From Tubulanus polymorphus (taxonomy: Eukaryota > Animalia > Nemertea), in assembly GCF_964204645.1 (NCBI RefSeq), contig NC_134028.1:14205653-14269652 (forward strand): a stretch of DNA of 64,000 nt. The letters run 5' to 3'. The position numbers and the translations under genes are program-made. The notes below the pieces were generated by a model. The model was not told where the DNA came from, ran no database searches, and saw only the letters and a program-made list of their open reading frames with translations. Position 1 is the stretch's first letter; each line of letters opens with the position of its first letter. Below, one piece after another: positions 2,306 through 64,000 of this stretch.

Positions 2306-2709
2306 AGTAATAGGGGTAATAGGCTTTCAGGTTAAAGGTTGAATGGTCGAGTTCATTAAAAACAAATATTAAAAGTAATTTAAAACTATAATATATTTTC
2401 ATAACCGTGTGCATTTCAGTTGAATAATAGAATAATAATTATTATTAAAATATATTTGATTATATGAATTTGTGTATTGTATTAAATCAATTGGTCGCGG
2501 AGCGGTAGCGAAGCGGAGCGACCAATTGATTTAATACAATATGCTTTTAAAATTAAATTTATTAATATCTTAGAATAAATATTTAGTTATAATATGAAAT
2601 GCACACGGTTATGAAAATATATTATAGTTTTAAATTACTTTTAATATTTTTTTTTTTAATGAGCTCGACCGTTCGACCTTTGATTTGAAAGCCTATTACC
2701 CCTATTACT
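2306..2709. repeat. Terminal fold-back palindrome (404 bp) of element A
   Basis: AGTAATAGGGGTAATAGGCTTTCA at 2306 and its reverse complement ending at 2709; apical stem around a GC-rich loop at 2493-2523. Confidence 0.95.
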
Positions 2710-4056: not shown

Positions 4057-4250
4057 AGTAATAGGGGTTTAGTTGTTCTAGATCAAAGGTCGAACGGTCG
4101 AGAAATTTTCCAAATGTGAAAATAACAATAATTTCTACTTGAATTAGTCGGGCACACTCCTAATTCAAGTAGAAATTATTACTATTTCACATTTGGAAAA
4201 ATTTCTCGACCATTCAACCTTTAACCTAGAACAACTAAACCCCTATTACT
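4057..4250. repeat. Terminal fold-back palindrome (194 bp) of element B
   Basis: AGTAATAGGGGTTTAGTTGTTCTAG...CTAGAACAACTAAACCCCTATTACT, with inner stem ATTTCTACTTGAATTAG/CTAATTCAAGTAGAAAT. Confidence 0.95.
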
Positions 4251-9420: not shown

Positions 9421-10008
9421 AGTAATAGGGATAATAGGCTTTCAGGCCAAAGGTCGAACGGTCGAGCTCATTAAAAACCAAAACATTAAAAGTAATTTAA
9501 AACTATAATATATTTTCATAACCGTGTGCATTTTATATTAAAAACTAAATATTTATCCTAAGATATCAATAATTTAAAAAGCATATTGATTTATTTACAA
9601 TACATAATTTCATATAATCAAATATATTCAAATGATAATAATTTCTACTTGAATTAGTCGGGAAACTCATAAAAAATGAAAAATAATTCTCACACACTCG
9701 AATTTATTTTTCATTTTCTACTCGCTAGAAAAAGTGTGAGTAAAGTGTGAGTGAAATAATTCATATTTTAACAGATTTCGAGTAAAAATATAAGTAAAAT
9801 AAATGGATAACTAAAAGAATATAAAAGTGTGAGTAAAGTGTGAGTGAAATAGTTTATATTTTAAACATATTTCAATATTTATATTTGTATGAGTTAGATT
9901 TTTAAACATTAAAAGTGTGAGTAAAGTGTGAGTGAAATAATTCATAAATCATTGAATATTTATATTTATATGTGTTGGATTCATTTTAATAAAAGTTTTG
10001 TTATTAAA

Positions 10009-10609
10009 ATGAAGACAGAAGAAGAAGAACCCAACTTTAAAATCGAAATCAATGAAACCAATAAATCATTTTCACAGTTTTACATTAGAAATTATATTTC
10101 AGCAACAAATTTAGTGTCCGCAAGACATTATAAAATCGATAATATTACTATGATTAATCAAATATTATCAAATGAAACATATTTAATTACTGAACTAGTA
10201 GATACTTTTGATAATGGTGTTAAAAATCCTAAAGTATTCAATACAGTTTTAAATTTTAAAGGAACTTTAGATGAAAACATAATTAATATTCTTAAAACTC
10301 CTTTCAATGAAAGAAATAATGATATAATACTTTCAAAAGATTACAATGATTTGATTAACTTAAGAATTGAAAAAAGGCAATTATATTATTTCAATTTTGA
10401 TAATAAACAAATTATCTATAACGAAAATTCATCAAATATTGGAATTCAATGTGAATTAGATAATGAAAAATCATTTAAAGATATTGCAGTTCAATGTAAT
10501 TTAGATGATGAATTTAGAAAATTCAATCCTAATGAAAAAGCGCATTGAAAAATCACATAAATCAAAGCATTATGAAACAATTAAACATAAAAACTGGCGT
10601 AAAGAGTAA
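10009..10609 (+). pseudogene. TIR-encoded ~200-aa protein, left copy (premature stop caused by the deletion)
   Basis: MKTEEEEPNF... started from TAAAATG. The right copy supplies the C-terminus VHWYCGGKYLKSHKSKHYETIKH, a degenerate zinc-finger-like motif. Confidence 0.65.
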
Positions 10610-10660
10610 CAATTCTACATTATAATTATTGAATTGAGTTAAATGATTTAAATATCTAAG

Positions 10661-11070
10661 AGACTGTTGAAATGATAAATTGTTTGACAGTTGAAATGAT
10701 AAATTGTTTGACAGTTGAAATGATAAATTGTTTGACAGTTGAAATGATAAATTGTTTGACAGTTGAAATGATAAATTGTTTGACAGTTGAAATAATAAAT
10801 TGTTTGACAGTTGAAATGATAAATTGTTCGACTGTTGAAATGTTAAATTGTTCGACTGTTAAAATGTTAAATTGTTCGACTGTTAAAATGTTAAATTGTT
10901 CTACTGTTGAAATGATGAATTATTCTACTGTTGAAATGATAAATTGTTTGACAGTTGAAATGATAAATTGTTTGACCGTTGAAATGATAAATGGTTTGAC
11001 AGTTGAAATGATAAATTGTTTGACAGTTTTAATGATAAATAGTTTGACTGTTGAAATGTTAAATTGTTTG
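10661..11070 (+). repeat. 24-bp minisatellite, ~17 units
   Basis: Unit GACAGTTGAAATGATAAATTGTTT with variants; inverted copy at ~11846-12255. Confidence 0.95.
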
Positions 11071-11168
11071 GTTGTAAATTTAATTGTTATTTGATTTGAA
11101 ACATATAAAAGTTGAATATTTCTAAAATATCAAATATTTATCAATTTAATAATTTTTTTCTTAAATAA

Positions 11169-11387
11169 ATGGATGGTTTCATTCCAACTGGGAAAAGTGA
11201 TTTGAAACATTGTTTAGTTGCTGGAGGTTTAATATTAGCAGCATTATATTTTTACTATGAGAATATTTCAAAAGATTTGATGAATGAAAATAATAAATTG
11301 AGTAAAAAATTAAAGAAGTTAAATGGAAACAATCACAGAAATAGAAAGAATAAAAAAGGTAATTTAGAAAATGATTTAGAGGATTAA
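11169..11387 (+). CDS. 72-aa protein with one hydrophobic segment and a basic tail
   Basis: CLVAGGLILAALYFYY hydrophobic stretch; start context AATTTTTTTCTTAAATAAATGG matches the Polinton structural genes. Confidence 0.6.
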   Translation: MDGFIPTGKSDLKHCLVAGGLILAALYFYYENISKDLMNENNKLSKKLKKLNGNNHRNRKNKKGNLENDLED

Positions 11388-11425
11388 AACAGCATCTTTT
11401 AATTTCATATATTTTGACTATAAAA

Positions 11426-11728
11426 ATGAGTGAAAATATATTAAACTTATTACATCTAATATATAAAAATCAACAGAATATTAAATCAATTATTATGCTT
11501 ACAGGTTTATTTTCATTCTCAGTTTATAGTATAAAACAGTTGTTAGAATTCTATGATTGCTGTAAAATTAGATACACTGAATTAATAGAAAATATGAATT
11601 ATATTTCAGATAGATTGAATAATATTAAGTGTTGTGAAATTTGTAATAAAAGATATAAAAATAAAAAGAGTTTGAGAAATCATAAATATATTCATGAACT
11701 TGATGAAAAATCATATGATTCAAAATAA
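11426..11728 (+). CDS. ~100-aa protein with a hydrophobic segment and a C-terminal C2H2 zinc finger
   Basis: IIMLTGLFSFSVYSI; CEICNKRYKNKKSLRNHKYIH is a canonical C2H2 pattern. Confidence 0.7.
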   Translation: MSENILNLLHLIYKNQQNIKSIIMLTGLFSFSVYSIKQLLEFYDCCKIRYTELIENMNYISDRLNNIKCCEICNKRYKNKKSLRNHKYIHELDEKSYDSK

Positions 11729-11755
11729 GAAATCGACTTAAAAAATATTAAATAT

Positions 11756-13514
11756 AAAAAATTATTAAATTGATAAATATTTGATATTTTAGAAATATTT
11801 AACTTTTATATGTTTCAAATCGAATAACAATTAAATTTACAACCAAACAATTTAACATTTCAACAGTCAAACAATTTATCATTAAAACTGTCAAACAATT
11901 TATCATTTCAACTGTCAAACCATTTATCATTTCAACGGTCAAACAATTTATCATTTCAACTGTCAAACAATTTATCATTTCAACAGTAGAACAATTTATC
12001 ATTTCAACAGTAGAACAATTTAACATTTTAACAGTCGAACAATTTAACATTTTAACAGTCGAACAATTTAACATTTCAACAGTCGAACAATTTATCATTT
12101 CAACTGTCAAACAATTTATTATTTCAACTGTCAAACAATTTATCATTTCAACTGTCAAACAATTTATCATTTCAACTGTCAAACAATTTATCATTTCAAC
12201 TGTCAAACAATTTATCATTTCAACTGTCAAACAATTTATCATTTCAACAGTCTCTTAGATATTTAAATCATTTAACTCAATTCAATAATCATAATGTAGA
12301 ATTGTTACTCTTTACGCCAGTTTTTATGTTTAATTGTTTCATAATGCTTTGATTTATGTGATTTTAAATATTTACCTCCGCAATACCAATGCACTTTTTC
12401 ATTTGGATTGAATTTTCTAAATTCATCATCTAAATTACATTGAACTGCAATATCTTTAAATGATTTTTCATTATCTAATTCACATTGAATTCCAATATTT
12501 GATGAATTTTCGTTATAGATAATTTGTTTATTATCAAAATTGAAATAATATAATTGTCTTTTTTCAATTCTTAAGTTAATCAAATCATTGTAATCTTTTG
12601 AAAGTATTATATCATTATTTCTTTCATTGAAAGGAGTTTTAAGAATATTAATTATGTTTTCATCTAAAGTTCCTTTAAAATTTAAAACTGTATCGAATAC
12701 TTTAGGATTTTTAACACCATTATCAAAAGTATCTACTAGTTCAGTAATTAAATATGTTTCATTTGATAATATTTGATTAATCATAGTAATATTATCGATT
12801 TTATAATGTCTTGCGGACACTAAATTTGTTGCTGAAATATAATTTTTAATGTAAAACTGTGAAAATGATTTATTGGTTTCATTGATTTCGATTTTAAAAG
12901 TTGGGTTCTTCTTCTTCTGTCTTCATTTTAATAACAAAGCTTTTATTAAAATGAATCCAACACATATAAATATAAATATTCAATGATTTATGAATTATTT
13001 CACTCACACTTTACTCACACTTTTAATGTTTAAAAATCTAACTCATACAAATATAAATATTGAAATATGTTTAAAATATAAACTATTTCACTCACACTTT
13101 ACTCACACTTTTATATTCTTTTAGTTATCCATTTATTTTACTTATATTTTTACTCGAAATCTGTTAAAATATGAATTATTTCACTCACACTTTACTCACA
13201 CTTTTTCTAGCGAGTAGAAAATGAAAAATAAATTCGAGTGTGTGAGAATTATTTTTCATTTTTTATGAGTTTCCCGACTAATTCAAGTATAAATTATTAT
13301 TATTTGAATATATTTGATTATATGAAATTATGTATTGTAAATAAATCAATATGCTTTTTAAATTATTGATATCTTAGAATAAATATTTAGTTTTTAATAT
13401 AAAATGCACACGGTTATGAAAATATATTATAGTTTTAAATTACTTTTAATGTTTTGTTTTTTAATGAGCTCGACCGTTCGACCTTTGGCCTGAAAGCCTA
13501 TTATCCCTATTACT
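11756..13514 (-). repeat. Right TIR of the 4.1-kb element
   Basis: Reverse complement of 9421-11158. Confidence 0.95.
12305..12927 (-). pseudogene. TIR-encoded ~200-aa protein, right copy (1-nt frameshift near the 5' end)
   Basis: Near-identical to the left copy; one extra base in the A-run at ~12896-12899. Confidence 0.65.
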
Positions 13515-28203: not shown

Positions 28204-28597
28204 AGTAATAGGGAATATGTTGTTTCAGATCAAAGGTCGAACGGTCGAGTTCATTAAAAACAAAACATTAAAAGTAATTTAAAACTATAATATATTTTCA
28301 TAACCGTGTGCATTTTATATTAAAACTAAATATTTATTCTAAGATATCAATAATTTAAAAAGCATATTGTATTAAATCAATTGGTCGCTCCACTTCGCTA
28401 CCGCTCCGCTCCGCGACCAATTGATTTATTTACAATACACACATTCATATAATCAAATATATTCAAATAATAATAATATTCAACTGAAATTCACACGGTT
28501 ATGAAAATATATTATAGTTTTAAATTACTTTTAATATTTGTTATTAATGAACTCGACCATTCAACCTTTAACCTGAAACAACATATTCCCTATTACT
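28204..28597. repeat. Left terminal fold-back (394 bp) of element C
   Basis: AGTAATAGGGAATATGTTGTTTCAG...CTGAAACAACATATTCCCTATTACT. Confidence 0.95.
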
Positions 28598-32722: not shown

Positions 32723-33076
32723 ATGGAGAGTAAACAAACACACAGTGAGAACAACAAATTATTTCTAGATAGAATAAAAGATACTACAAATGTAAAATCT
32801 GTAGATTATAAATTCAAAAAGTTAACAGAATTAACAATTCATAAGAAATATCTAATTACAAATATTGATACAGTTACTAATAACTATGGAGATAAATTAG
32901 TTATACACTTAGAATATGAAGGATTAAAAGGAAATACAAATAAATTCAGAACATATTTACCAGATAGATTTCATAGATCATCAAGTGAAGACCTAGAAGA
33001 ATTATGTTCTGGAGATTTCTATTTCGTATACAAAGGTAAGAATGAAAAAGGGCACCATGAAATAGATTTCGAATAA
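32723..33076 (+). CDS. 117-aa conserved protein directly downstream of PolB (possibly OB-fold ssDNA-binding)
   Basis: KKLTEL..KYLI...NYGDKLVIHL...TYLPDRF pattern; the function is inferred only. Confidence 0.55.
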   Translation: MESKQTHSENNKLFLDRIKDTTNVKSVDYKFKKLTELTIHKKYLITNIDTVTNNYGDKLVIHLEYEGLKGNTNKFRTYLPDRFHRSSSEDLEELCSGDFYFVYKGKNEKGHHEIDFE

Positions 33077-45075: not shown

Positions 45076-45459
45076 AGTAATAGGGAATATGTTGTTTCAG
45101 GTTAAAGGTTGAATGGTCGAGTTCATTAATAACAAATATTAAAAGTAATTTAAAACTATAATATATTTTCATAACCGTGTGTATTTCAGTTGAATATTAT
45201 TTTCATTTGAATATATTTGATTATATGAATGTGTGTATTGTAAATAAATCAATTGGTCGCGGAGCGGAGCGGTAGCGAAGTGGTGATTTAATACAATATG
45301 CTTTTTAAATTATTGATATCTTAGAATAAATATTTAGTTTTAATATAAAATGCACACGGTAATGAAAATATATTATAGTTTTAAATTACTTTTAATGTTT
45401 TGTTTTTAATGAACTCGGCCGTTCGACCTTTGATCTGAAACAACATATTCCCTATTACT
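45076..45459. repeat. Right terminal fold-back (384 bp) of element C
   Basis: Reverse complement of 28204-28597 with a ~10-nt deletion beside the loop. Confidence 0.95.
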
Positions 45460-45630: not shown

Positions 45631-46040
45631 AGTAATAGGGGTAATGGGCTTTCAGGCCAAAGGTCGAAGGGTCGAGCTCATTAAAAAACAAAACATTAAA
45701 AGTAACTTAAAACTATAATATATTTTCATAACCGTGTGTATTTTATATTATAACTAAATATTCATTCTAAGATATCAATAATTTAAATTTAAAAAGCATA
45801 TTGTATTAAATCAATTGGTCGCTCCACTTCGCTACCGCTCCGCTCCGCGACCAATTGATTTATTTACAATACACAAATTCATATAATCAAATATATTTTA
45901 ATAATAATTATTATTCTATTATTCAACTGAAATACACACGGTTATGAAAATATATTATAGTTTTAAATTACTTTTAAAATTTGTTTTTAATGAACTCGAC
46001 CATTCAACCTTTAACCTGAAAGCCCATTACCCCTATTACT
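45631..46040. repeat. Left terminal fold-back (410 bp) of element D
   Basis: AGTAATAGGGGTAATGGGCTTTCAG...CTGAAAGCCCATTACCCCTATTACT. Confidence 0.95.
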
Positions 46041-46246: not shown

Positions 46247-49200
46247 ATGGAAGCAAATAAGTACTACTGTCCAAAATGTAATATCAATATAGATAAATCC
46301 CAAAAAGCAAGACACAATAAAACTAAAACACATTTAGAGAATAAATTGAAACTAGAATATAAAGATGATATATTAGAAACTAAATTAGATGAATTAAAGA
46401 ATGAAAAAGAAATATACAAATGTGATACATGTAATCAATCATTCAGTGATAAAAGATATTATAATGAACATTTAAAATCTAAAAGTCATATTAGAAATAA
46501 GAATAATGATATTTTAGGTGAAGATTATTTTGATAAAGATAATGATAAGAAACAGAAGACAATTAAAAGCATAAACAATAAATTAAACAATAAAAGACCA
46601 TACATGGAAGATGTAAGAAATTATATTAATTCATTAGATAATAAAAAAGATATAGAGATAACCGAAGCATTTAAAAGTGATATTGGCCCAGCAGCTATCG
46701 AGTTTAAATTTCATAAAGGAAAAACATTAGGAGAAAATAAAAAACATTTAGAAAATATGAAAGAAATAATAAAAATAATTACTGATGTTGAATATCCTAA
46801 AATTAGTATATCAGTTAAAGTTAAATTCATAAAATCTGAAGATAAACCAATATATATTATAAATTCTCATTCACAACATATTATATATAAACAACATATA
46901 GATGATAAATTAAGATAAATGTTATAATGAAGTAAAAACTAAAATAGAAGAGAAATATTTTGAAGGATCTGGTTTAATATTTGATGAAATAATATTTATG
47001 ACTTTACATGTTTATAACACAAAATATAATAAGTTTACTAAATCAAAACCAATTGATGAAAATAATGTATCATATTATAAAGAACCAGATATTGAAGCAT
47101 CGAGTTATATTAAACTACCATTTAAAACTAATTCTGTAATAAATGTACAAAATGAAGATGATAAATGTTTTCTATGGACAATTATAAGTTGTTTACACCC
47201 AGTTGTAGATTATAATAAACATACTTATAGATTAACAAATTATAAACAATTTGAAAATAATTATAAGATAGATAAGTATCCTGTTATAATTAAAAACATC
47301 CCAAAAATAGAAAGAGATAATTATATAAAGATAAATGTATTTGATTTAATCAAATTACCAAATACAAAAGGTAACAATATTAAACATTATACATTAGAAC
47401 CTTTATATCTATCAAAAGATTATGATTCAAACGATGTTATAGATATACTATATTATGAGAATCATTATATGTTGATTAAACAAATCGATTTATTTTTTAA
47501 ATCAGAAAGTGATCACCATAAAATATATCTTTGTAGAAAATGTTTACATAGATTCAGTAATGAAAGTACATTATTAAATCATAAACAATTATGTGAAAAT
47601 CATGATTATTGTAAATTAGTTTTACCAAATGAAAAGGATAAAATATTAGAATTCAAAAAATATGATTACAAAAATAAAGTACCATTTGTAATATATGGAG
47701 ATTTTGAATCATTAAATAAAGATCTAACTGATCAAGATAGAAAAGAAATATATTATAAAAGAAAGAAATTAAATTCTAATGAAAATGATTTTTCAGATGA
47801 ACCACCAAAAACAAATACTATTAAAAAGATTCATCAATCAGCCGCAGCTTTCGGGTTATATATAAAATCTGATTATCCAGAACTAATTGAAAGTGAATAT
47901 TATCATTATAGAAATGAAAATGTTATCAATCATTTTTGTGACTTATTTATTGAATATGAAATAAGATTTAGTAAATTATTGAATACAAATATAGAAATTA
48001 TAATGACAGAAGAAGATAAAGAAGCATTTGCGTTTGCAGATAAATGTTATTATTGTGAAAAGATATTTAATTATAAAGATAAAAAAGTAAGAGACCATGA
48101 TCATTTGAATGGAAAGTTTAGAGGCGCTGCACATGAGGATTGTAACTTACAAGCTAAGAAAATTAACTTTGTACCAGTTATATTTCATAATCTATCAGGA
48201 TATGATGCACATTTATTCATCAAACAGTTATGTCATAAAATAGAAGAAATCAATAATGAAATAGAAAGATTAAATTCAAATAGATCAAAAGATAAAATAC
48301 CAACTTATAAATTTAGAATGTTAGCTAAAACATCTGAGAATTATATATCATTCCAATTTGGTTGCCTAAGATTTATAGATTCGTATAGATTTTTAAATAG
48401 TTCATTAGATAACTTATCAAAATCATTAGTTGATGATGAATTAAAGATATTAAAACAAAACTACCCAAATAATGATGATTTTAAATTAATGAGATATAAA
48501 GGAGCAATTCCATATTCTTTCTATAAAAATCATAATGATTTTAACATAACTGAATTATTGAAAGAACAATTCTATGATGAATTAAAAAATGAATATGTTA
48601 AAGATGAAGTCTATAATAGAACATTGAATATTTGGAATCATTTCAAAATAGAAAATCATGGACAATTAGTAGATTTATATCTAAAATCAGATGTATTATT
48701 ATTAACCGATATATTCGAAAGGTAAAAACCTAAAATATTTTAACATTGATCCTTGTCATTGTTATTCATCACCAGGTTTAACATGGGATTGTGGATTAAA
48801 ATTTACAGATATAAAAATAGATTTGTTAACAAATATAGATCAATTACTATTATTTGAAAAATCTATAAGAGGAGGAGTTTCAGGTGTATTAGGTGATAGA
48901 TATTTCAATGTAAATGATAATCCTGGATTTAAATTATTATATAAAGATGCAAATAATTTGTATGGTTGGGCAATGATGGAACCACAACCTTATGGAGTAT
49001 TTGAATTAACTGAAGTTTTACAGAATGAAAATAATGATAAATTTGATTGGAGGAAAGAATTCTAGATATTGCGGATGATTCAGATACTGGTTACTTCTTT
49101 GTTGTAGATTTAGAATATCCTGAACATATTAAATTTAAATCTAGAAATCTAGCATACTGCCCCGAACATAAAACTGTAACACATGAAGAATTATCAAATG

Positions 49201-50161
49201 ACCAAAAAAGAATTAAACCTGAAAATCATATTCATACAGAAAAGTTAATGGTAACTCAAGAAGATAAATATAATTATGTAGTACATTATAGAATGTTGAA
49301 GTGTTTTTCGAGAAAGATTTCTTCAAGTTAATGAACAATGCATTCTATGGTAAGACTTGTGAAAATATTAGAAATAGAAATGATATTGAGTTAGTTAGTA
49401 ATGGTAAAAGAATTAGACATTTACAATCATATCCTAAGTTCATTGGTAACAGAATATTTGATGAAAATTTAGCTGCAGTTAAGATGAGACGAACATCAAT
49501 GAAATTTAATAAACCAATCTATGTTGGCCCTTCAGTTTTAGAATTATCAAAATTACTAATGTATGAATTCTATTATAATGTATTACAACCACTTTTTGGA
49601 GAAAAACATATAGAAATATTATATTTTGATACTGACAGTTACATATTAAAGATAAAAACTGATAACATAACTGATGATTTAAAAACATTAAAACATCATT
49701 TTGATTTTAGTAACTATCCTTAAGATCATGAATTGTTTAGCAATGACAATAAAAAAGTTCCCGGTAAATTCAAGGATGAATTAGGCGGTGAAGAAATGAT
49801 TGAATTCATCGGTATTAGATCTAAAATTTATTCATATAAAACTAAAGAACATGAAGCTAAAAAGTTAAAAGGAATAACCAAAAGTGTAGTAGAAAAGAAT
49901 ATTCATTTCAAAGATTACATCAATTGTATATTCAATGAAGAAGTTAGAAAACATAAGATGAGATGTTTAAGATCTGAAGATCATGGAATGTTTATTGAAG
50001 AAATTGAAAAGATAAGTCTAAACCCATTTGATGATAAAAGATATATTTTAGATGATGGAATTCATACAGTTGCTTATGGTTGTAATTTAGATGAATACTT
50101 AAAATTTAAAAGAGAAGAAACAAAAGAGAACGAGATAATGAAAAGAATTCTAACGTGTTAA
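46247..50161 (+). pseudogene. polB: Protein-primed-type PolB polyprotein, fragmented
   Basis: INVQNEDDKCFLW (OTU-like protease-type motif), C2H2 finger, VIYGDFES, EndoVII-like insert, DANNLYGWAM, KLMNNAFYGK, YFDTDS; frameshifts and a deletion near 49300. Confidence 0.95.
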
Positions 50162-52819: not shown

Positions 52820-54160
52820 ATGGCAGATAGTTTTCCAAAAGCTTTCCAATATAATAAATCAATCAAATATAATATTCCTGCAATAGATTTTAATAAAGAT
52901 ATTACATATAGAAATGAAGTTTTAGATTCATTAACTAATTTAGAAATTTATGTTACTGAAACTAATAATTTTAATGCAAAGATGGAAAATATATTCCATG
53001 TATATTTAATTAATTTTAAAAAATTGAAAGATGAAAAACAATGGTTATTGAAATCTAATATGAAGTATTGGCAGAACCAATTAAATTTTGCTGTTTATTG
53101 TGCAACAACAGGATGTGGAATTAGTTGGAATGATCATTTGAATAATTCTAAATATAAATTAATTCAAAGTTTATCTAGATTTCATACATACTTTCAAATC
53201 AGAATAATATTAAATGAATTAGAGTGCGCTTTACCAGGATCTAGATATTTTAAAGAATTAGATAATAATATTAATTTATCAAAGTTTTATAAAATTTGTA
53301 ATGAATTTAATATAGATATAAATAATTCTGATTTTAGAACAAAAATTGGAACAATAAGATCACTTCCTTGCCCTAAAAAGATTGCAGAATATTGTGCACT
53401 TCCCATACCATCTAATAGTTTGTATAATATCTATAGTAATAAATTAGGTTATGGTAAAATAGAAACTAAGGATTTAGAAACATTAAATTTCAATAAATTA
53501 CCGACATTTTATGATAATTTAAAACAAGAAAACAATAATGGTTGGGTTTATTTTATTTTAGAAAATAGTGAATAGTGGTTTTACTAAATCAGGTATAGAA
53601 AGAATAAATCAATCTATTAGAACTTATTTGATATGTATTTTAGGTGCACAAGTTGAAACAAGATCCCCAATAATTGGAAATTTAAATACATCATTTGATA
53701 CACAGAAACAATTCAAAGTATTATTTGAAGATTCAATTCATAATGATAAAAATAGATCGATTCCAGAAAACATTGTAAGATATCAAAATTATTTAGATAA
53801 ATCACATATTAGATTAAATTATTGTATAGGCCCTAATCTATTAATTATTTCTAATGATTTAGTATTAAAGATGGGAAATATAATTGGTTATAATAATCTA
53901 ATTAAAACTGCAACAATAAATAATTCATTTGGATTGAATGATATAAATAAAAAGATAATTAATGCTCCAAAATTAATGGAAGGTGAAAAAAATAAAAAAC
54001 ACATTCTATCAACAGAAACTAAAACTAAGAATATTAAATTAAATAATGATTCTAAAATAAAAGATTACTAAATGATGATTATAAATCCCATGAAAATACT
54101 AAATTAGCTTTAACTTGTATAGGAATTGTAATCGGAGGAATTTTATATTTTAAATTTTAA
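52820..54160 (+). pseudogene. Conserved ~430-aa protein with C-terminal TM segment, frameshifted
   Basis: YWQNQLNFAVYCATTGCGISWNDHL motif; a small duplication at ~53566 shifts the frame. Confidence 0.75.
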
Positions 54161-54175
54161 TTTTTTATTATGTAA

Positions 54176-55643
54176 ATGGCAGAAGGTGGAGAAGATTATG
54201 AAATGGAAGGCATGGGAAATAATAATGTAGGATGTATTGATGATGATTATAATGATGCAGAAACTAATATTGATGATGGTAATGAATCAGCATATAATTC
54301 TAATTTAGCAGATAGTGGTTCTAAAAGCCCATCAACAGATGAATTTGATAGAAGAACTAGGTCGAGAATACCTCCTGAAAATTTAAATCAAGGTTTAGAA
54401 AGAAAACATTTTGAAAATTATGAATTTATGTATGATTTTCAACGTTTATTTAAAGATTCTGGATATAATATAAATAATAGAGGCGCCAGACTTTAAGTAC
54501 AAGATTTAAAGTTTTTAGATGGTGAATATTATTATCGTGTGAAAGAAAAATCGGATTATTATATTAATATCTCTAATAAAAATCAAGACAAAATAATAGC
54601 AAAATCAACTTTGCTGAAGTCTGACTCATTACTATCTATAATTAAGAGAATAATAAATAGTAATGAAATAGAAGATGTAAGACAAGAAGAAATAAATCAA
54701 AATAAAAGAGTATTTAAACTAAGAATTAATAAATTATTTGAAATAATCAAAGATAATCCAGAAACAGAAACAACTTCTGAACAGAATAAAACTTCCAAAA
54801 CTAGTAAACTTAAATCAAATAAATTTCCAATTGAAAAACTTTTACCAAATGGATTACTTGATGCAACAGATCAACAATTAGAAGATTTAAATAATATATT
54901 TTCTGATAAAGCAATTAGAGAAATTATTAGTATAAGACTTGCATCCGATAAAATTGCGCATGATAAAAGTATAAGAGATTTAAAAATTAGAACTTTAGAA
55001 AAAGAATTAACTGATAAAAATAAAGAAATAGAACAATTAAAATCAGATAGAGATAATAAAGTTATTGAAGAAATTGAATTTAAAAAAAAGAAATGCATAT
55101 TTAGAAAAAGAAATTGATGATTTAGAATATAACATAGAATTACAAAAAGAAGAAATTAAATTATTGTTAAAATCATATGATTATAATATAAATAGATTAA
55201 AAGTTATTTTTAAAGATTTGTTGATGAAACCAAATTCTGAAATATCATTGAAAGATAGAATAAAATTATTATTTAAGTTAGAAGGAATAACAATTCTTTC
55301 AATTCTAACAGCTGTAACTATGTTATTTACAACAATAGGTTTAGCAATATCAAATGCTTTAAAATCTACTCCTACTCCCAAGAAACCGGATAAACCCCCG
55401 AATGATAATAATTCTATACAAGATAAAGTTAAGGATGGTTTAAAGAAATTAGCAAAATATTTATGGGAACTATCTAAAAAATCTGCTGCAGCATTGCCAG
55501 GAGTTATTGCATCAATTGTTGGTTTTATATTGAAATCTGCAGGAAACATTATTAACTTTGCTGCTGAAAATATTATTTTATTTTTAATAACAGTTGTAAG
55601 TGCTATTATTTTTGGATTAGTAAACATGATCAAAAATAAATAA
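54176..55643 (+). pseudogene. MAEGG-type coiled-coil/membrane protein, disrupted
   Basis: Three fragments; conserved hydrophobic C-terminus. Confidence 0.78.
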
Positions 55644-55663
55644 TTAATTTTTTTGTTAAATAA

Positions 55664-56910
55664 ATGAGTGGGAGTTATATCAATCCTTCTAAGAATCATA
55701 GAATATCTAATGCTATTAAAGCAGAAAGATCACATCATATAATTACTCATAACCCTTCTAATATTAATCCCGATGAAACTTTATACGTTAGAATCCCTCG
55801 ATTAACACAAAATACTTTTTACGTTCCAAATAGTATTTATTTATCAGCCGATATAAAAGTAATCGGTAATAATAATAATTATGTTGTTGATAATGTTGGA
55901 AGATATTTGATTAAAAAATTAACAATAAAGATCGGTCCGGAAACAGTTTTCTCATTAGATGATTATAATTTATTTATGCATAATAAAGATTTATGGTTAA
56001 CTAAAGAAAATAGAAATAATATTATATTTCAAGGAATCCAATCAGAAAACCAAAATAAATTAAGATCAGAAGCACATAATGCAATATTAACTAATTCTAT
56101 AGATAAATTGATAAAAAGTATATATGGAAGAAAATATAAAATTCCATTAGACTTTGAATTGATAAATAACAATGCACCTTTATATAAATACGCAATTCAA
56201 GAAGACGTTATATTCGAAATAACATTTGCTCCTGTAAATGAAATTGTAATATCTAGCGTTAATAAAGATATGAGTTATAAATTATCGAATATATGTTTAG
56301 AATATGATAGAGTAACTGATGAAAATATTTCAAGTATAATTCAAACTTAATACAATCAAGGATTTTCATTATTATATGATTATATTGATAAATTTAAAAC
56401 TGTAACTATTAATGCAAATGATGAAATAATTAATGAGAATATTAACTTCCCAAGAAGATCTATTAAAGGTATATTAATATTTTTTACCATTGCAACATAT
56501 ACTAATGGCGCAATAAATGTTGATAATTATTATAATCCTGAAATAACAAAAGTAGAAATAACTATCGAAGGAATAGCAAAAAAATATTTTGTCAAGGAAT
56601 GAGAATGATTGATCAATGGCCAGAAATTAGAAAACATTTTATGAATGAAAAAGTAAAATCATCTGAAAATTGTAATATTAATCAAATTGATTATTATACC
56701 GGTAATAAATATGCATTATGGTTAGATCTTAGAACAACAGAGGATAATTCATTACATGGTTCTGGAAAAAAACTACAGAACACTAAAGATGGAATACAAT
56801 TATTCATGACAAAGAATAAAGGAATCAAAAATTTCAAAATGCACATTTATATTATATCTGACGCGCAATTAAATATTGTAAATTCTCAATTAAATAGTGT
56901 TATGTATTAG
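55664..56910 (+). pseudogene. Putative major capsid protein, disrupted
   Basis: Homolog of 38282-39524; stop at 56348 and a frameshift near 56580. Confidence 0.72.
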
Positions 56911-56942
56911 AATTTTAACTTTAATAAAAATTTATATAATAA

Positions 56943-57812
56943 ATGGAAGGAGGTAAAGTATATAAACATATTCCATACATCGATACACATGAAAATAATG
57001 ATGGTTTATATTATGTAATACCTTGTAATATAGCTTTGATGTTTGATCCTATTTTCAAAATTAATAAAAATAAACTAATAGAAATCGATAATAATAAAAG
57101 TGGGGTTGTTGATAATTTAAGTAATGTAATTGATAATAATGTAATACGTTCTACATCTAATAATGTAATACGTTCTACATCTAATAATGTAATACGTTCT
57201 ACATCTAATAATGTAATACCTTCTACATCTAATAATGCAATACCTTCTATATCTAATAATGTAATACCTTCTACATCTAATAAAGCAATAATATTAAATG
57301 TTAGTGAAAATAGAAATTATTGTGATTATTGTAAAGGTGAATTTTCAAACGCTCCATCAAATTGGAATAATCATATGAATACAAATTCACATATTACTAA
57401 TGTTATAAAACGTGTTGGTTTAAGAGAATTTATAGAACACCCATTTAGATATGTTACAAAGTTTGTTTCAAATCAAAAAGTAAATGGTAAAGATTTATAT
57501 AAAGATTTATTATTAGCAACGCCTAATAAAGATGAATTAGATTTAACCGATGATATTAAATTAGAATCAAACATTGTAAATGAAATATTAGGAGCAAACA
57601 CTAATAAAGATAATAATGAAAATACAGGAAAGCGCATTGATAATAAAGATTCTATGAAACTTAAATCAGAAAATAAAGATATAGTTGAGACGACTAATAA
57701 GTATATCAATAAACCAATTATTTATGAAGATACGGTAGAGCATTTGAATAAATTGTTAGGGTCTGATAGTGAAAGTGATTCAGAAAGTGATTATCTAACA
57801 CTCAAAAAGTAA
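56943..57812 (+). CDS. 289-aa single-zinc-finger protein with NNVIRSTS repeats (divergent allele at the ZnF locus)
   Basis: MEGG start as in B/C; CDYC..NWNNHMNTNSH finger; 24-bp coding tandem repeat at ~57135-57280. Confidence 0.75.
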   Translation: MEGGKVYKHIPYIDTHENNDGLYYVIPCNIALMFDPIFKINKNKLIEIDNNKSGVVDNLSNVIDNNVIRSTSNNVIRSTSNNVIRSTSNNVIPSTSNNAIPSISNNVIPSTSNKAIILNVSENRNYCDYCKGEFSNAPSNWNNHMNTNSHITNVIKRVGLREFIEHPFRYVTKFVSNQKVNGKDLYKDLLLATPNKDELDLTDDIKLESNIVNEILGANTNKDNNENTGKRIDNKDSMKLKSENKDIVETTNKYINKPIIYEDTVEHLNKLLGSDSESDSESDYLTLKK

Positions 57813-58144
57813 TAAAGGTTGAAAATTGTATAAAATAATAGTAAATAAAAAAGGGGGTTTTAAGTATTAAGGTATCTAATACATATCTAATACATATCTA
57901 ATACGTATCTAATACGTATTTAATACATATTATTTGAAAATACCTTAAATTATATTTCTTTTTTAAATTTATATTGAAACCTCAGTAATAATACATAACC
58001 TTTATTATTTTCAAACTTATTCATATATTAGTTGAAAAAAATAAAAATAAATTGGTTGAAAATTATATGAATAATATTTATTTTAAAAATGGGGTTTTAA
58101 GTATTAATGTATTTAATACGTATCTAATACGTATTTAATACGCA

Positions 58145-58780
58145 TTAGATAGATAGATATATAAATAGATATTTTATAAACTTATATTCATAGGGAAATT
58201 GTAATCTCAGTAATAATTTTGAACCTTTATTATTCTTTAATTTATTCATATATTCATCATGTAATTCAGTAGGTATAATTTGATTTTCTTCCAATGATTG
58301 TTGCATAGGTTTTTTATCTTTGTTATAAAACAAAACTAGAAATCTTATATTCTCCCTAAAGTCTTTAACAATTGAATTATATTTTTGATTTAAAACCCAT
58401 GTTGTTATTCCAAAATGTCTCTCAGAGAAAGCTAAATAACATAACTCACTTCCTCTCACTATTGAATCATGTAAATTTGCGCAATCATCTATAATGAATA
58501 ATGTATTTGATCCTGTATAAGTATCAATTGCTATTTTTATACAATTATCTAAATTTTCTTTTACTGTTTTCGGATTTAATATAATAAACTTTTTTATCTT
58601 AACTATGTCTCTATTATATGTTTTATTCATTTCATAAGTAGGACAGAATAATACTATACTATCAAAATGATTCTTATAAATAGTTTCTAACAAATCTAAT
58701 ATGAAATGTGTTTTACCACAATTGGTTACACCAGTAACTAACATATTATGCGGTTCAAATATAAATAAATCTTTATTCAT
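58145..58780 (-). CDS. A32/FtsK-like packaging ATPase
   Basis: GVTNCGKT and LFIIDD; the GRH motif is changed to ERH. Confidence 0.9.
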   Translation of the reverse strand: MNKDLFIFEPHNMLVTGVTNCGKTHFILDLLETIYKNHFDSIVLFCPTYEMNKTYNRDIVKIKKFIILNPKTVKENLDNCIKIAIDTYTGSNTLFIIDDCANLHDSIVRGSELCYLAFSERHFGITTWVLNQKYNSIVKDFRENIRFLVLFYNKDKKPMQQSLEENQIIPTELHDEYMNKLKNNKGSKLLLRLQFPYEYKFIKYLFIYLSI

Positions 58781-59905
58781 TTATTCTTTTAATTTTACTA
58801 GATAAAATCCATTCATTAAATTTATCATCGTATCCTTTATAATTCACCAAAGAATACTTTTTTCCTTTAAGAGTTTTTGTTTTCAATACTTTTTCTATTT
58901 TGTATTCTATTTCATCTGGGTTTGGTACAAGTGATAATTCTTGTTCATAGAAATAACCTAAGATTTCTTCATCTTTTAAATCTTCTAATTTATAAACAAA
59001 TGGTTTAGTTAATATTATCTTTTTAATCTTGAATATTTCTTCTGTAAAATTAGGGGTATAACCTTTATAAAAGGTTTTTCTATATTTAGATATTCTTACG
59101 TGTTGTCCAATTTTAAATTTAGGTTCACCGAAATCGTGTGTAACAAACGCTCCATATAAATTATTCCAAACTATTTCCGAATTATCTTCTTTTCTAGCTT
59201 GTATAGGTTTCATATTTATAGAACTATGTTTAGAATTATTATAACCTTTCACTAAATCATCTAATACATCGATATATTTATATGTTTCATTAGCAGTAAA
59301 ATATTTCCACATTCTAGTTTTCAATGTTTTATTAAATCTTTCTATAATAGATGCTTTTTTATCTGAGTGTGTTGAAAAATATTTTACATCGTTATCAGAT
59401 AATAGTTTTTTAAAATGTTTGTTATAAAATTCCTTACCTTCATCAAATTGTATCTTATCTGGAATAGCTTCTTTAAATATAGATTTAAAAGCATTTGTAA
59501 CTTCTATACCAGTTTTATTTTTGATTGGAATTGACCATGCTTATCGACTGAATATGTCTATAACATTCAGTATCCAGAAATATCCTTTGTTGTATTCCTC
59601 TAAGTTCTTCATGTCAATTAAATCTGCTTGCCATTGTTGATCAATATATGAAACCATAACTTTTCTTGTTAAATAAGTTTTATCCATTTTCTTGTGGATT
59701 TGATATGTTGGTTGATTTTGTAACCATGATTTTAATTCACTATATTTTATATCACCGTGTGGGTGCCATACGGCACCATTACCATTTTCATTATCAGATT
59801 TAATTTTATTCCATAATTCTGAAACGTTAGAATATGATACTTCACTTTCTGGGTTATAATATCTTAAATATTGGTTAAATCTCTTAAATATTGTTCTTTT
59901 TTCAT
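58773..59905 (-). pseudogene. rve integrase with chromodomain, disrupted
   Basis: Homolog of the other integrase copies; stop near 59541 and an insertion near the 5' end. Confidence 0.9.
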
Positions 59906-59911
59906 TCTATT

Positions 59912-60280
59912 TTAATCCATTAATAATAATTTAGATTTAGTTTCAATGGCTTTATGATTTGACTTATTTTCTGGTATAATAAGTTTATTGTCATTGGAAT
60001 CATATTTATCATCAGATTTGAATTTTGATTTATATATTACACCGGATAATATAATAACTGTTACTAATCCAATTGTAATATATAATTTATAATTACTTCC
60101 AGCATTAGGAGAATTAGATGGATTATTATTTGAATCAATATCAGATAAAGTCTGTGATTCATTTCTATCAGTTAATTTCTTTTTCTTAGCTTTTTTTAAT
60201 TCTGAAGATCTTTTACCTAATTCTCTTGCCCATTTAATTTGTTTCTCGGATCTAGCCTTTTTCTTAACTCCATCACTCAT
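59912..60280 (-). CDS. 122-aa basic single-TM protein
   Basis: Homolog of 42758-43156. Confidence 0.75.
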   Translation of the reverse strand: MSDGVKKKARSEKQIKWARELGKRSSELKKAKKKKLTDRNESQTLSDIDSNNNPSNSPNAGSNYKLYITIGLVTVIILSGVIYKSKFKSDDKYDSNDNKLIIPENKSNHKAIETKSKLLLMD

Positions 60281-60306
60281 TTATTTTAGTGATTTTTTGT
60301 TCTGAT

Positions 60307-60887
60307 TCATTTTGTTTCACTGTTTGGTTGTAGTACATCTGTTTCGTTCTTACCTGATTTATATTCCATAGGCTTGATGTTCGAAAATGTTATGACACCA
60401 GTAGAAATTAATGTCATAACCGATCCTAATTGAAATGAAGCATAACCGACCCATTTTTGTAATTCAGTCATAACTAAATAGTCATTTTTCAAATCACTAT
60501 ATAATTTATTTTCATCATTAATTGGTATTAACTGGTTACATAACTTAGAATAACATTTGACAATACCATCTGAAATGGAATCATTTATTCTAGCTAATCT
60601 AGCTTCTTCATAAATCTTAAAATATTTTATTACTTTATCTGGTTTCATAGCATCTAATTCTTGAAAAGTAATAGTCTTAGTTAAAAACTCTCTACACTTT
60701 CCGCTAGCGATCAATAGTTCAAGATGGTGTTTACAATATGAATAGTATTCACAATCTATATTCATATATTACAATTAACTTGAATATTATTTTCAATTTT
60801 GGCCGGAATATCCTTATTATCACTAATGCCCAAATCATCTAATGTTTTTTCAATATCAATACTATTCTTACTCGATTTCTTTGACAT
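60307..60887 (-). pseudogene. Conserved ~200-aa hypothetical protein (5' frameshift; 152-aa part open)
   Basis: Homolog of 6818-7425. Confidence 0.7.
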
Positions 60888-61199
60888 TTATATTAGAGAA
60901 ATTTAATAAGAAAAATATTATAAGTATTAAAATGATACCAGTATCTCTTTATATTAATACTAGCTTAGTTAAAGGTAAAGAATTTTAGTATTAGTTATTG
61001 TTTTTTAGTATTTTTTATTTGTGATATAAAGTATTCTCTTTTGAAAAGAATTGTTAAAGAAAATATCAAAAATTAAAATAGAAATAATGGCTAGTTGAAG
61101 TTATTGTTTCTATTTTAATATATTTTATTTGAATTCTATTTGATATCTCACTACTTTTGTTTATCTATTAGGAGCAGTAATTATAACTGTCCAGATATG

Positions 61200-61880
61200 T
61201 CATTTCGGATCCTTGATATCAAATTCCTCAACATATTGTTCATTATTTGGATCATTGTTCCATTGATCAATAAATTTCTTTGCCTTTGTTAACTGTTCTA
61301 AATATAACTGTAAATCTAGTTTATTAGATTTGATTTGATTTTCTTTCTTTTCTAAAGGCCTTAAATTTTTCCAACCCCAAATAAGTTTTTTATTGTATTC
61401 ATCATTCATGTTAAATTTAGATATTGGTAACACGTGATCAATATGGTAATAATCCACATAATTATCTATGTTCATTTTATCATCGAATTGAAATATAATC
61501 CATGATTTCAGAAATTCATCTGAACAACCCAATAGATTAGATAGTGTTTCTGAATGTGTTTCTTTGTTAAATAATTGTGTTAATCTAGATCTTAAGCATT
61601 GTTTCAATCTAAAATTAAGATCTGTTTGATATCTTTCTCTCATATATTCCGTCATATAATCATTATAAGCTTCTCTATTATCTTCTCGGTATTGTTTGGT
61701 ATATAGTTTGTTACAAGTTTTACAGCAATATTGAAAACCATCTTTGCTAATCTTACGCTTACTAAATTCTGTTAAAGCTAATTTATCTAATTCACATTTA
61801 GAACACTTCTTGTAATATATATTTATAACACCAGCAGTGTTATTTGTAATGTTGATAATTTGTGGTTGTTCTGGTTCCAT
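61200..61880 (-). CDS. HNH/endonuclease VII-like nuclease with zinc ribbon (intact)
   Basis: CSKC..CKTC; YHIDHVLPISKF..NLRPLEKKENQIKSNK. Confidence 0.78.
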   Translation of the reverse strand: MEPEQPQIINITNNTAGVINIYYKKCSKCELDKLALTEFSKRKISKDGFQYCCKTCNKLYTKQYREDNREAYNDYMTEYMRERYQTDLNFRLKQCLRSRLTQLFNKETHSETLSNLLGCSDEFLKSWIIFQFDDKMNIDNYVDYYHIDHVLPISKFNMNDEYNKKLIWGWKNLRPLEKKENQIKSNKLDLQLYLEQLTKAKKFIDQWNNDPNNEQYVEEFDIKDPK

Positions 61881-62020
61881 TTATTATACATATTTTTTAC
61901 TAAATTGGTCAATATTTTAGAATCCTCTTCCATTTCTTCGACCAACGTCATCCTTTTTCATTCCTCACTGCTTTTGATAAGTTGTTTCGATTCCTTGATA
62001 TCTAAATAATACAACTGGGC

Positions 62021-62590
62021 AAAAGCGCGCATTCATGCGCGCTTTTGAACAATGCGCATGCGCTAATCCTAATTATATATTCATTATGTAAATTCTGTAA
62101 AATAGGAACAACCGAACACAGAAAATATCAAAACGTGTTCGCATTAGGCAAAACCGCGCATTCGTGCGCGCTTTTGATCAATGCGCATGCGCTAATCATA
62201 ATTATATATTCATTATGTAAATTCTGTAAAATAGAAACAACCGACATGAAATATCTAAACGTGTTCGCATTAGGCAAACCGCGCATTCACGCTCGCTTTT
62301 GATCAATGCGCATGCGTTAATCATAATTATATATTCATTATGTAAATTCTGTAAAATAGAAACAACCGACATGAAATATCTAAACGTGTTCGCATTAGGC
62401 AAACCGCGCATTCATGCGCGCTTTTGATCAATGCGCATGCGCTAATCATAATTATATATTCATTATGTAAATTCTGTAAAATAGAAACAACCGACATGAA
62501 ATATCTAGACGTGTTCGCATTAGGCAAACCGCGCATTCATGCGCGCTTTTGATCAATGCGCATGCGCTAATCCTAATTATATATTCATTC
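62021..62590. repeat. ~125-bp subterminal tandem repeat, ~4.5 units
   Basis: Unit AAACCGCGCATTCATGCGCGCTTTTGATCAATGCGCATGCGCTAATCATAATTATATATTCATTATGTAAATTCTGTAAAATAGAAACAACCGACATGAAATATCTAAACGTGTTCGCATTAGGC. Confidence 0.95.
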
Positions 62591-63480
62591 TGAATAGAAA
62601 CGACCGAACATAAAATTTCACCAATCAGATTTACACAATACATTATACAAGTTGTTCGGCCGTTTCTTCCAATACATCATTTGATTTCTATAAATACAAT
62701 TTATAATTACAAACATTTTTTTCAATTGCTGGTAAATATTTAACTACATCAACAAATGTTAAACTTAATCATTGGAGTCTTAATGTTTTTTAAATTCTTA
62801 TATAGTTTCTTCGTCGATCTTTTGGCGATTCTTGTCTTTCTTGTGCTAATTTCTATTGGTTCGATATCCATTGCTGTTGATTCCTCAGTCAGAAAGAGTA
62901 TCTTGAGTTTCTCTATCACTTCTTGATGCGTATGGCGTTTTATTAATCTAAAAGATATTAGCGGCAACTCTAGCCATCTAAAAGATATACTAAATACACT
63001 TAAATATATCTAAAGGTTTCATATTTAATAGCCCTAATAATTACAAAAAACAGTACTTACATTTAGATTTAGAATTGTAAACTATAAACTCCTAATTTCA
63101 TTTCGAGAGATAGAATATCCTGAGCGTAATGTTACAGCGCCTGTTCATTTCTTGCCACGTCATCTGGTTCCGGTTCTAGAGTGTTCTACACGTTTGCAAT
63201 ATTATGACTCATATGTCTCGGCGTCATAGTAACAGCTGTAACAGCTGTGAATTTATAGATTTATTCAATAGTTCATTACATGAAATGTATATAGGCTCAA
63301 ATAGAATCATGTTCTAGTATAAACAGCTATGCATTATTTCAATCACACTTTACTAACACTTTTAATGTTTAAAAATCTAACTCACACAAATATGAATATT
63401 GAAATAATGTTGTAAATATATACTTTTATATTGAATAATCTGTCAATTTAAATGTTATTCATTTACATGAATATTTTAAG

Positions 63481-63890
63481 AGTAATAGGGGTTATGGGCT
63501 TTCAGGTTAAAGGTTGAATGGTCGAGTTCATTAAAAACAAATATTAAAAGTAATTTAAAACTACAATATATTTTCATAACCGTGTGTATTTCAGTTGAAT
63601 AATAGAATAATTATTATTATTAAAATATATTTGATTATATGAATTTGTGTATTGTAAATAAATCAATTGGTCGCGGAGCGGAGCGGTAGTGAAGTGGAGC
63701 GACCAATTGATTTAATACAATATGGTTTTTAAATTTAAATTATTGATATCTTAGAATAAATATTTAGTTATAATATAAAATACACACGGTTATGAAAATA
63801 TATTATAGTTTTAAATTACTTTTAATGTTTTTTTTTTTAATGAGCTCGACCCTTCGACCTTTGCACTGAAAGCCCATTACCCCTATTACT
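63481..63890. repeat. Right terminal fold-back (410 bp) of element D
   Basis: Reverse complement of 45631-46040. Confidence 0.95.
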
Positions 63891-64000
63891 TACGTTAACA
63901 CGACTGATTACTAATCCAAATATTGCATTACAAAAAAACAATTACGCAAAACGTCAAGTACTTACAGCATCTGAGACAGTTGCGCTTCAGTTAGAGTGTT

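What the first reader, a model, noticed from the sequence alone, without database searches (positions are those of the whole stretch)
63669..63704. The hairpin apex is a string of GNA/GNNA mini-hairpin motifs on the same 3' strand
Seen: the loop reads GGTCGCGGAGCGGTAGCGAAGCGGAGCGACC in A and GGTCGCGGAGCGGAGCGGTAG(C/T)GAAGTGGAGCGACC in C/D. These are overlapping GC-GGA-GC, GC-GGTA-GC and GC-GAA-GC units, a GC-rich island in a very AT-rich end. Known: d(GCGNAGC) forms unusually stable, nuclease-resistant mini-hairpins through sheared G-A pairs, and Streptomyces linear replicon telomeres use similar GNA-looped 3' folds. Inference: this is a protein-recognition or nucleation cap for the telomere fold, with the same strand polarity as the wobble pairs.
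Basis: partly seen in the sequence, partly recalled or inferred. Interest (0 to 1): 0.7.

Follow-up and report, generated by a model that had tools for sequence, protein, structure and literature searches.

The report
G·A-zipped tip of Maverick end hairpin
Both ends of this virus-like jumping element (a Maverick/Polinton) are 410-base mirror repeats whose GC-rich centre likely folds, on one strand only, into a hairpin tip held by unusual G·A pairs; it probably helps the loose end fold back during copying, but sister elements use a different tip, so it is unlikely to be a fixed protein-docking code.

Summary
The sequence is real. The 36-mer is the centre of a 410-bp imperfect palindrome that forms the outer end of the terminal inverted repeat of an integrated Maverick/Polinton (pPolB, rve integrase, A32 ATPase, 6-bp TSDs). 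All five long ends in the window carry it on the strand whose 3' end is the terminus. The units overlap, so they cannot be a string of separate mini-hairpins; in mirror register they form one nested hairpin: two GNA/GNA internal motifs (guanine-zipper type) capped by GGTA. Raw reads from many copies fit this: all 4 tip bases vary (4.7-10%), 0 of 8 zipper G/A reach 1%. A sister end with a 194-bp palindrome has a different G·A-rich apex, and a 4.1-kb satellite with a TSD lacks the apex at both ends, so a specific protein-recognition cap is not supported. Best reading: a strand-specific structural cap that would help the displaced 3' end fold into a duplex origin for protein-primed copying. Folding and function are untested. 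Terminal palindromes are reported for virophages/PLVs, and this scan noted Polinton end hairpins in other genomes; I found no paper on a G·A apex in Mavericks.

The parts
63669..63704 (+). Apex of element D right-end palindrome (the finding): 6-bp GC stem, two GNA/GNA internal motifs, GGTA tip in mirror register; T at 63690 is private to this copy
63481..63890 (+). 410-bp terminal palindrome of D right end: ~110-bp outer stem with G·T wobbles, ~50-nt AT-rich bubble, ~23-bp inner stem, apex; 3' end ACT is the element terminus
   Evidence: (MFE -113.9, z -23.6)
63329..63890 (.). Right TIR of element D (97.5% to left TIR 45631-46192)
   Evidence: (I10)
63891..63896 (.). 6-bp target-site duplication of D (TACGTT; partner 45625-45630)
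45631..46040 (-). Terminal palindrome of D left end; apex 45817-45852
28204..28597 (-). Terminal palindrome of element C left end; apex 28383-28418; TSD CATAGA
45076..45459 (+). Terminal palindrome of C right end; apex 45255-45283 with 10 nt deleted on its 3' side
2306..2709 (+). Terminal palindrome of element A right end; apex 2493-2523 lacks one 5-nt unit
   Evidence: the 5-nt deletion is in 27 of 1357 reads
4057..4250 (-). 194-bp terminal palindrome of a sister Maverick (B-outer left end): same tips and same four G·T sites, different stem, different 12-nt apex at 4148-4159 with GA/GA at its base
9421..13514 (.). 4.1-kb non-autonomous element with 1.77-kb TIRs and TSD TATATG; outer arm kept, inner arm and long apex absent at both ends; short GA/GA hairpin inside each TIR (about 13231-13246 and its mirror near 9693)
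46247..50161 (+). pPolB gene of D, broken into several frames (zinc fingers, vOTU-type Cys/His, EndoVII insert, exonuclease and polymerase parts)
58773..59906 (-). rve integrase of D, broken (C copy 41888-42757 hits PF00665)
58145..58780 (-). A32-type packaging ATPase of D
   Evidence: PF04665, E 3.8e-10
32723..33076 (+). 117-aa protein of C behind pPolB; predicted OB fold, candidate single-strand DNA-binding protein

Best explanation
The 36-mer is the centre of a 410-bp palindrome at each end of an integrated Maverick, and on the strand that ends at the element's 3' terminus it likely folds as one nested hairpin tip (GC stem, two GNA/GNA sheared-G·A motifs, GGTA loop) that would help the displaced single strand snap back into a duplex end. 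Shown: the palindrome, its place at the terminus, the mirror register, the strand bias and the pattern of variation among copies. Inferred: protein-primed strand displacement releases a full-length single strand; its 3' 410 nt fold so that the terminal ACT pairs with the inner AGT, recreating a duplex origin locally without a panhandle to the far end; G·T wobbles and G·A motifs pair on this strand but become A·C and T·C mismatches on the other, so only the 3' end folds well and the duplex copy stays an imperfect palindrome. The cap is structural: its architecture can be swapped (CGAG-block type in sister ends) or lost when the whole element is itself a hairpin.
For: Mirror register in D_L and C_L: all 18 positions are Watson-Crick, G·T, G·A or the G/G, G/A centres of a GNA/GNA motif; 10 of 11 loop positions pair against 3 of 11 on the complement, shuffle p 0.015; the only 4-nt unit sits at the exact centre. 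Reads of run X6, depth about 1280-1300: tip bases 63685-63688 vary at 4.7, 7.3, 5.8 and 10.0%; 0 of 8 zipper G/A and 1 of 4 zipper middle bases (63692 A>G, 1.4%, GAA to GGA) reach 1% (Fisher p 0.002); the common stem variants are C/T changes that leave G·T pairs (63674 6.3%, 63679 3.0%, 63695 36% C). Arms co-vary: 11 of the first 23 stem positions hold different Watson-Crick pairs across 6 ends while 4 G·T positions stay unequalised in long and short types. 3'-end strand folds 5-13 kcal/mol better in 6 of 6 ends. Sister apexes keep GA/GA on the same strand (table 5c, 24, 28). Precedents read as passages: guanine zipper, GNA with N=G favouring the duplex over the loop form (PMC11014236); CGAG block (PMC10085684); GCGNNAGC mini-hairpins (PMC13037366). 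A predicted OB-fold protein lies behind pPolB.
Against: No folding or binding experiment. ViennaRNA leaves the 24-nt loop open and the 36-mer alone is no more stable than shuffles (z -0.15); it has no terms for such motifs. A (GC-GNA)n repeat is self-symmetric by construction, so the register is partly automatic. CpG asymmetry (C>T at 5 of 7, G>A at 1 of 7) is not significant (p 0.10). Reads come from one run, 12% of it, and copies share ancestry. Independent elements for polarity number only 5 (p 0.06). The guanine-zipper structures read were in A-T context, not GC. Distant Polintons (26-36% pPolB identity) show no long terminal palindrome in 25 locus ends folded, though only about 4 loci seem to hold a true terminus. 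About 1-2% of reads and the 4.1-kb satellite lack the apex.
Confidence: 0.5

Rival explanations
1. One reading: the apex folds into separate GC-GNA-GC ears that a viral or host protein recognises, as Tap does on Streptomyces telomeres.
For: Canonical units are enriched (8e-5); such 7-mers melt at 70-76 C (PMC13037366 section 2.3); GCGGAGC is bound by N4 RNA polymerase (passage); internal GGA/GAA triplets are conserved in reads.
Against: Units overlap, at most 2 per window copy; T at 63695 in 64% of reads removes the closing C-G of the last unit and the GC-GAA-GC unit; the GNNA tip loses its G or A in 4.7% and 10% of reads; sister ends have no such unit and the satellite has none.
Confidence: 0.15
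2. Parvovirus-like self-priming: the folded 3' OH is extended directly, giving hairpin-closed or concatemeric intermediates that an element nuclease resolves; the apex is the turn of that hairpin.
For: The terminal base pairs exactly with the inner AGT in 6 of 6 ends, a primer-template geometry; the same model is proposed for virophage/PLV palindromes (bioRxiv 10.64898/2026.07.28.741278 section 7); the element carries an EndoVII domain in pPolB and an HNH-like ORF (61200-61880, motif read by eye, no Pfam hit).
Against: No Rep/HUH gene seen; pPolB keeps vOTU-type Cys/His columns; no flip/flop: diagnostic T>C changes at 63508, 63515, 63519, 63527 are not among the 40 rows shown of 126 and opposite-strand joints total 47 reads at depth about 1250, which excludes a 50:50 mix but not a minor share; in that preprint palindromes go mostly with non-pPolB elements.
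Confidence: 0.15
3. By-product: the palindrome arises from fold-back copying at the ends and the apex is a slippage-expanded GCGGA pentamer with no role; strand bias reflects deamination on a single-stranded intermediate.
For: 5-nt unit loss in copy A and 2% of reads; C>T and A>G on one strand would mimic G·T bias; the apex is dispensable in the satellite; long and short palindromes look like modular rearrangements.
Against: Position-specific constraint inside the repeat (0 of 8 against 4 of 4); four G·T sites survive while neighbouring positions are equalised between arms in four different sequence types; unrelated apexes converge on GA/GA on the same strand.
Confidence: 0.2

Closest known systems
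Mavericks/Polintons (PMC8097293 passages; PMC11161782 passages)
   Same: pPolB, rve integrase, A32 ATPase, 17-18 kb, TIRs of about 560-600 bp, AGT...ACT tips, 6-bp TSDs.
   Different: The outer 194-410 bp of each TIR is itself a palindrome with a G·A-rich apex; 'palindrom' and 'hairpin' occur 0 times in PMC8097293.
Terminal palindromes of Halocafeteria virophages and PLVs (bioRxiv 10.64898/2026.07.28.741278, section 7 read)
   Same: Palindrome inside the TIR next to the TSD; hairpin role in replication proposed.
   Different: 52 nt in the example given and mostly in non-pPolB elements; here 194-410 bp in a pPolB Maverick, with fixed G·T asymmetry and a G·A apex, which that section does not describe.
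Streptomyces typical telomeres (PMC4513846 passages)
   Same: Protein-capped linear replicon logic; 3' single strand folds with sheared G·A closures.
   Different: Several short palindromes with GCA loops within the first 91 nt, bound by Tap for end patching; here one long hairpin with the G·A part about 190 nt from the end, no Tap/Tpg homologue sought or seen, integrated element.
Guanine zipper of human satellite III (PMC11014236 passages) and CGAG block (PMC10085684 passages)
   Same: GGA/GGA internal motif between sheared G·A pairs in a 5-nt repeat fold-back; C-GA-G/C-GA-G in the short sister apex seen in reads.
   Different: Spacers are G-C rather than A-T pairs; only two motifs; the fold here is predicted, not solved.
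Parvovirus terminal hairpins (PMC8242256 passages)
   Same: 100-400 nt terminal hairpin with mismatch bubble and structured tip; some termini occur in one orientation only.
   Different: No Rep/NS1, dsDNA integrating element, no flip/flop seen.

Membership tests
Maverick/Polinton | Protein-primed family B polymerase | tested here: met
   PF03175 E 1.2e-8 on C copy; 702 homologues, named ones from animal genomes
Maverick/Polinton | Retroviral-like integrase and packaging ATPase | tested here: met
   PF00665 E 1.4e-9, PF04665 E 3.8e-10
Maverick/Polinton | TIRs, AGT-type tips, 6-bp TSD | tested here: met
   TSDs TACGTT, CATAGA, TATATG in 3 of 3 elements with both ends
Maverick/Polinton | Double jelly-roll capsid protein and protease | tested here: inconclusive
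   Candidate capsid ORFs 38282-39524 gave no Pfam hit; not folded; capsid label is recalled from gene order
Maverick/Polinton | Terminal-protein domain in pPolB | not tested
   Alignments of the N-terminal ORF failed; vOTU-type Cys57/His156 nearly invariant
GCGNAGC/GCGNNAGC mini-hairpin | GC-GN(N)A-GC sequence | tested here: met
   2 to 4 units per apex, at most 2 non-overlapping
GCGNAGC/GCGNNAGC mini-hairpin | Folds as 2-bp hairpin with sheared G·A, Tm 70-76 C | not testable with these tools
   Folding program has no such terms
Guanine zipper (GNA)2 motif | GNA opposite GNA in antiparallel register between canonical pairs | tested here: met
   GGA/GGA and GGA/GAA in mirror register in D_L, C_L, D_R; copy A is out of register at the tip
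Guanine zipper (GNA)2 motif | Intercalated bases between sheared pairs by NMR/X-ray | not testable with these tools
   Needs structure
Streptomyces typical telomere | Several tightly packed short palindromes at the 3' end with GCA loops | tested here: not met
   One long hairpin, apex about 190 nt from the end
Streptomyces typical telomere | Tap/Tpg end patching | not tested
   No specific search; no such family among Pfam hits of 18 ORFs scanned
Rolling-hairpin (parvovirus) terminus | 3' terminal base pairs back as primer | tested here: met
   Terminal T pairs with inner A in 6 of 6 ends; geometry only
Rolling-hairpin (parvovirus) terminus | Flip/flop isomers | tested here: inconclusive
   One orientation in 5 of 5 long ends; 50:50 mix excluded by reads, minor share not; some parvovirus ends also show one form
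Rolling-hairpin (parvovirus) terminus | Rep/NS1 HUH nickase | tested here: inconclusive
   No such Pfam hit in 18 of about 50 ORFs of C and D scanned

The most novel reading that the evidence does not exclude
This Maverick lineage uses strand-specific non-canonical DNA chemistry (fixed G·T wobbles plus G·A zipper or CGAG-block caps) to make only the 3' end of the displaced strand fold, giving a local hairpin origin or even a self-priming end alongside a protein-primed polymerase: a hybrid of adenovirus-type and parvovirus-type end replication, and a natural replication role for the guanine zipper known so far from satellite DNA.
Probability: 0.25. Interest if true: 0.75.

Novelty: new variant of a known kind. 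Interest (0 to 1): 0.45.

Why it matters
Polinton replication rests on a model in which a single strand pairs its two far ends; I found no experimental test of it in the papers read. An end that can fold locally, with a clear strand bias, co-varying arms and two interchangeable G·A caps, gives short oligonucleotide substrates on which that model, and the hairpin-priming alternative raised for virophages, can be tested. It would also be a selected natural use of (GNA)2 zipper DNA.

Tried and rejected
No host genome was available. Apex stem pattern: 0 hits in viral contigs; 35 hits in metagenome contigs rejected as chance: unrelated loops, GC-richer flanks, no blastn hit to the window. pPolB single-sequence locus search: 0 loci; alignment search: 21 loci, none with a long terminal palindrome, most without a true end (two of them, L055 and L056, are large contigs with partial matches). 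The 25668 motif match lies in a GC-rich flank without a palindrome. Standard folding cannot score the apex. Alignments to fold the terminal-protein region misaligned and were dropped. Run X1 (small share) was not used for any claim. Literature: 4 searches on Polinton/Maverick with hairpin, palindrome or secondary structure listed no paper on G·A apexes or long terminal palindromes in pPolB Mavericks; only listings were seen for most, and the original Polinton papers were not available. Supplements of the bioRxiv preprint were not seen and may list pPolB elements with palindromes. The 117-aa fold match is weak (best Z 5.4, rmsd 2.9, 71 aligned) and shows an OB-like arrangement, not a function.

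Full report
Context. Self-comparison and ORF scans show several integrated copies of one 17-18 kb element family in AT-rich DNA. They encode pPolB with an EndoVII insert, an rve integrase and an A32 ATPase; the best named polymerase homologues are from animal genomes. Elements D (45631-63890), C (28204-45459) and a 4.1-kb satellite (9421-13514) begin with AGTAATAG, end with CTATTACT and have 6-bp TSDs. These are Mavericks/Polintons; all copies seen have broken genes. No host genome was held.

Observation. The 36-mer is as quoted and recurs at five ends. It is the centre of a 384-410 bp imperfect palindrome that forms the outermost part of each TIR: about 110 bp of outer stem, an AT-rich bubble of about 50 nt a side, an inner stem and the apex (z -23.6). 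The apex is 69% GC against 22%. GC-GN(N)A-GC units are enriched on one strand only, but overlap: 2-4 units per copy, at most 2 at once; at the finding's coordinates there are 2, and GC-GAA-GC is complete only in copy A.

Topology. Read in mirror register, the D_L and C_L apex gives a 6-bp stem, GGA opposite GGA, two pairs (one G·T), GGA opposite GAA, two pairs, and a GGTA tip. Ten of 11 loop positions are Watson-Crick, G·T or G·A against 3 of 11 on the complement; shuffle p 0.015. This is weak alone because a GC-GNA repeat is self-symmetric. GNA opposite GNA is the guanine-zipper motif, and GNA with N=G prefers that form to a loop (PMC11014236, passages); C-GNNA-G is a stable DNA tetraloop class (PMC10085684 passages; PMC13037366 section 2.3). 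ViennaRNA leaves the loop open and gives the 36-mer z -0.15, so the fold is inferred.

Variation among copies. One raw-read run with a matching species label (X6; 12% of the run read) covers the apex at about 1280-1300 reads. One search lists every difference from 1%. Inside the apex: 63674 C>T 82 of 1293, 63679 C>T 38 of 1284, 63684 C>T 16 of 1280, 63685 60 of 1285, 63686 93 of 1279, 63687 74 of 1266 (plus 15 one-base deletions), 63688 127 of 1272, 63689 18 of 1292, 63690 C in 1271 of 1301, 63692 A>G 18 of 1272, 63695 C in 458 of 1287, and a 5-nt deletion in 27 of 1357. So 4 of 4 tip bases vary and 0 of 8 zipper G/A do (Fisher p 0.002). Contigs of other runs repeat 63688, 63687, 63679, 63695 and the 5-nt deletion, which argues against sequencing error. 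Stem changes are mostly C/T, which leave G·T pairs on this strand; the CpG asymmetry (5 of 7 against 1 of 7) is not significant (p 0.10). Reads sample related copies of one individual, so these are not independent events. The pattern fits one terminal loop on a constrained stem better than equivalent ears, and it weakens a recognised GNNA tip.

Sister ends. A second Maverick end at 4057-4250 is a 194-bp palindrome with the same tips, an unrelated inner stem and a 12-nt apex with GA opposite GA and no GC-GNA-GC unit. Reads show further short types whose apex has C-GA-G opposite C-GA-G (3 to 5 reads each, table 5c), the CGAG block of PMC10085684, and loose ends of 250-330 reads with other stems (table 7). 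One X4 contig shows another GC-GNA-rich variant (table 7, 30 letters only). The satellite 9421-13514 lacks the inner arm and a 54-nt stretch with the apex at both ends yet has a perfect TSD; being almost wholly palindromic it could fold without a local hairpin. About 1-2% of reads carry apex deletions.

Stem polarity. Across six ends, 11 of the first 23 stem positions hold different Watson-Crick pairs, while positions 26, 28, 35 and 39 stay G·T in at least 4 of 6 ends, long and short alike; the 3'-end strand folds better in 6 of 6. Mismatch totals are 34 G·T against 1 A·C. Block-wise co-variation suggests that one arm is copied from the other (inference). Inversion of the palindrome (flip/flop) is not common: diagnostic changes are absent from the 40 rows shown of 126 and opposite-strand joints total 47 reads.

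Wider relatives. The apex stem pattern is absent from viral contigs and its 35 metagenome hits are chance. Of 21 distant Polinton-like loci none shows a long terminal palindrome; 25 ends of 20 loci were folded, best z -4.7 against -23.7 for the short window end, but only about 4 loci appear to hold a true terminus. The feature looks lineage-restricted; the sample is thin.

Mechanism. Shown: anatomy, polarity, constraint. From established knowledge of protein-primed replicons and PMC11161782 (passages): pPolB starts at the ends and displaces a strand. Inferred: the displaced strand's 3' palindrome folds, the apex closing the inner stem, and restores a duplex end for the next initiation; the other strand and the duplex are poorer palindromes. 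The 117-aa protein is predicted to be an OB fold with phage SSBs among its nearest matches, which fits a single-stranded intermediate and suggests general ssDNA binding more than apex recognition. Rivals are ears bound by a protein (0.15), direct hairpin priming (0.15) and a neutral by-product (0.2).

Novelty. Palindromes inside TIRs are described for virophages and PLVs, with a hairpin-priming proposal (bioRxiv 10.64898/2026.07.28.741278, section 7). Earlier notes of this scan report end hairpins in other Polintons and a hairpin satellite (unchecked AI notes). Four literature searches gave no paper on a G·A apex in a pPolB Maverick; the library lacks most subscription papers. Interest 0.45.

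Noticed in passing
window 9421-13514: 4.1-kb non-autonomous element with 1.77-kb TIRs (97.7%), TSD TATATG and internal 24-bp tandem arrays, inserted into another Maverick; carries Maverick tips but no inner arm or long apex.
   Followed up: partly
window 63481-63527 and 63844-63890: Four G·T positions fall in a GGTCGA-type repeat that differs between outer and inner arm and is kept in long and short palindromes; may silence the inner copy of the terminus as an origin or integrase site.
   Followed up: partly
window 32723-33076 (+): 117-aa protein with predicted OB fold; nearest named atlas cluster phi29 SSB (0.84, lead only) and a phage SSB at E 2.2e-4 in the viral structure library.
   Followed up: yes
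window 62018-62592: Four to five tandem 125-bp repeats rich in GCGC/TGCGCATGCG palindromes inside D, upstream of the 226-aa ORF; also at 5200-5720 in the sister element.
   Followed up: no
window 61200-61880 (-): 226-aa ORF next to the right TIR region with an HNH-like motif read by eye; no Pfam hit at E 0.001.
   Followed up: no
window 63593-63648 and 63722-63776: The AT-rich bubble of about 50 nt a side is non-complementary but conserved in position across A, C and D; C is shorter on both sides (9 and 6 nt).
   Followed up: no
window 1-64000: At least five Maverick-related insertions cluster in 64 kb, C and D only 171 bp apart; reads indicate high copy number of these ends in the sequenced genome.
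   Followed up: no
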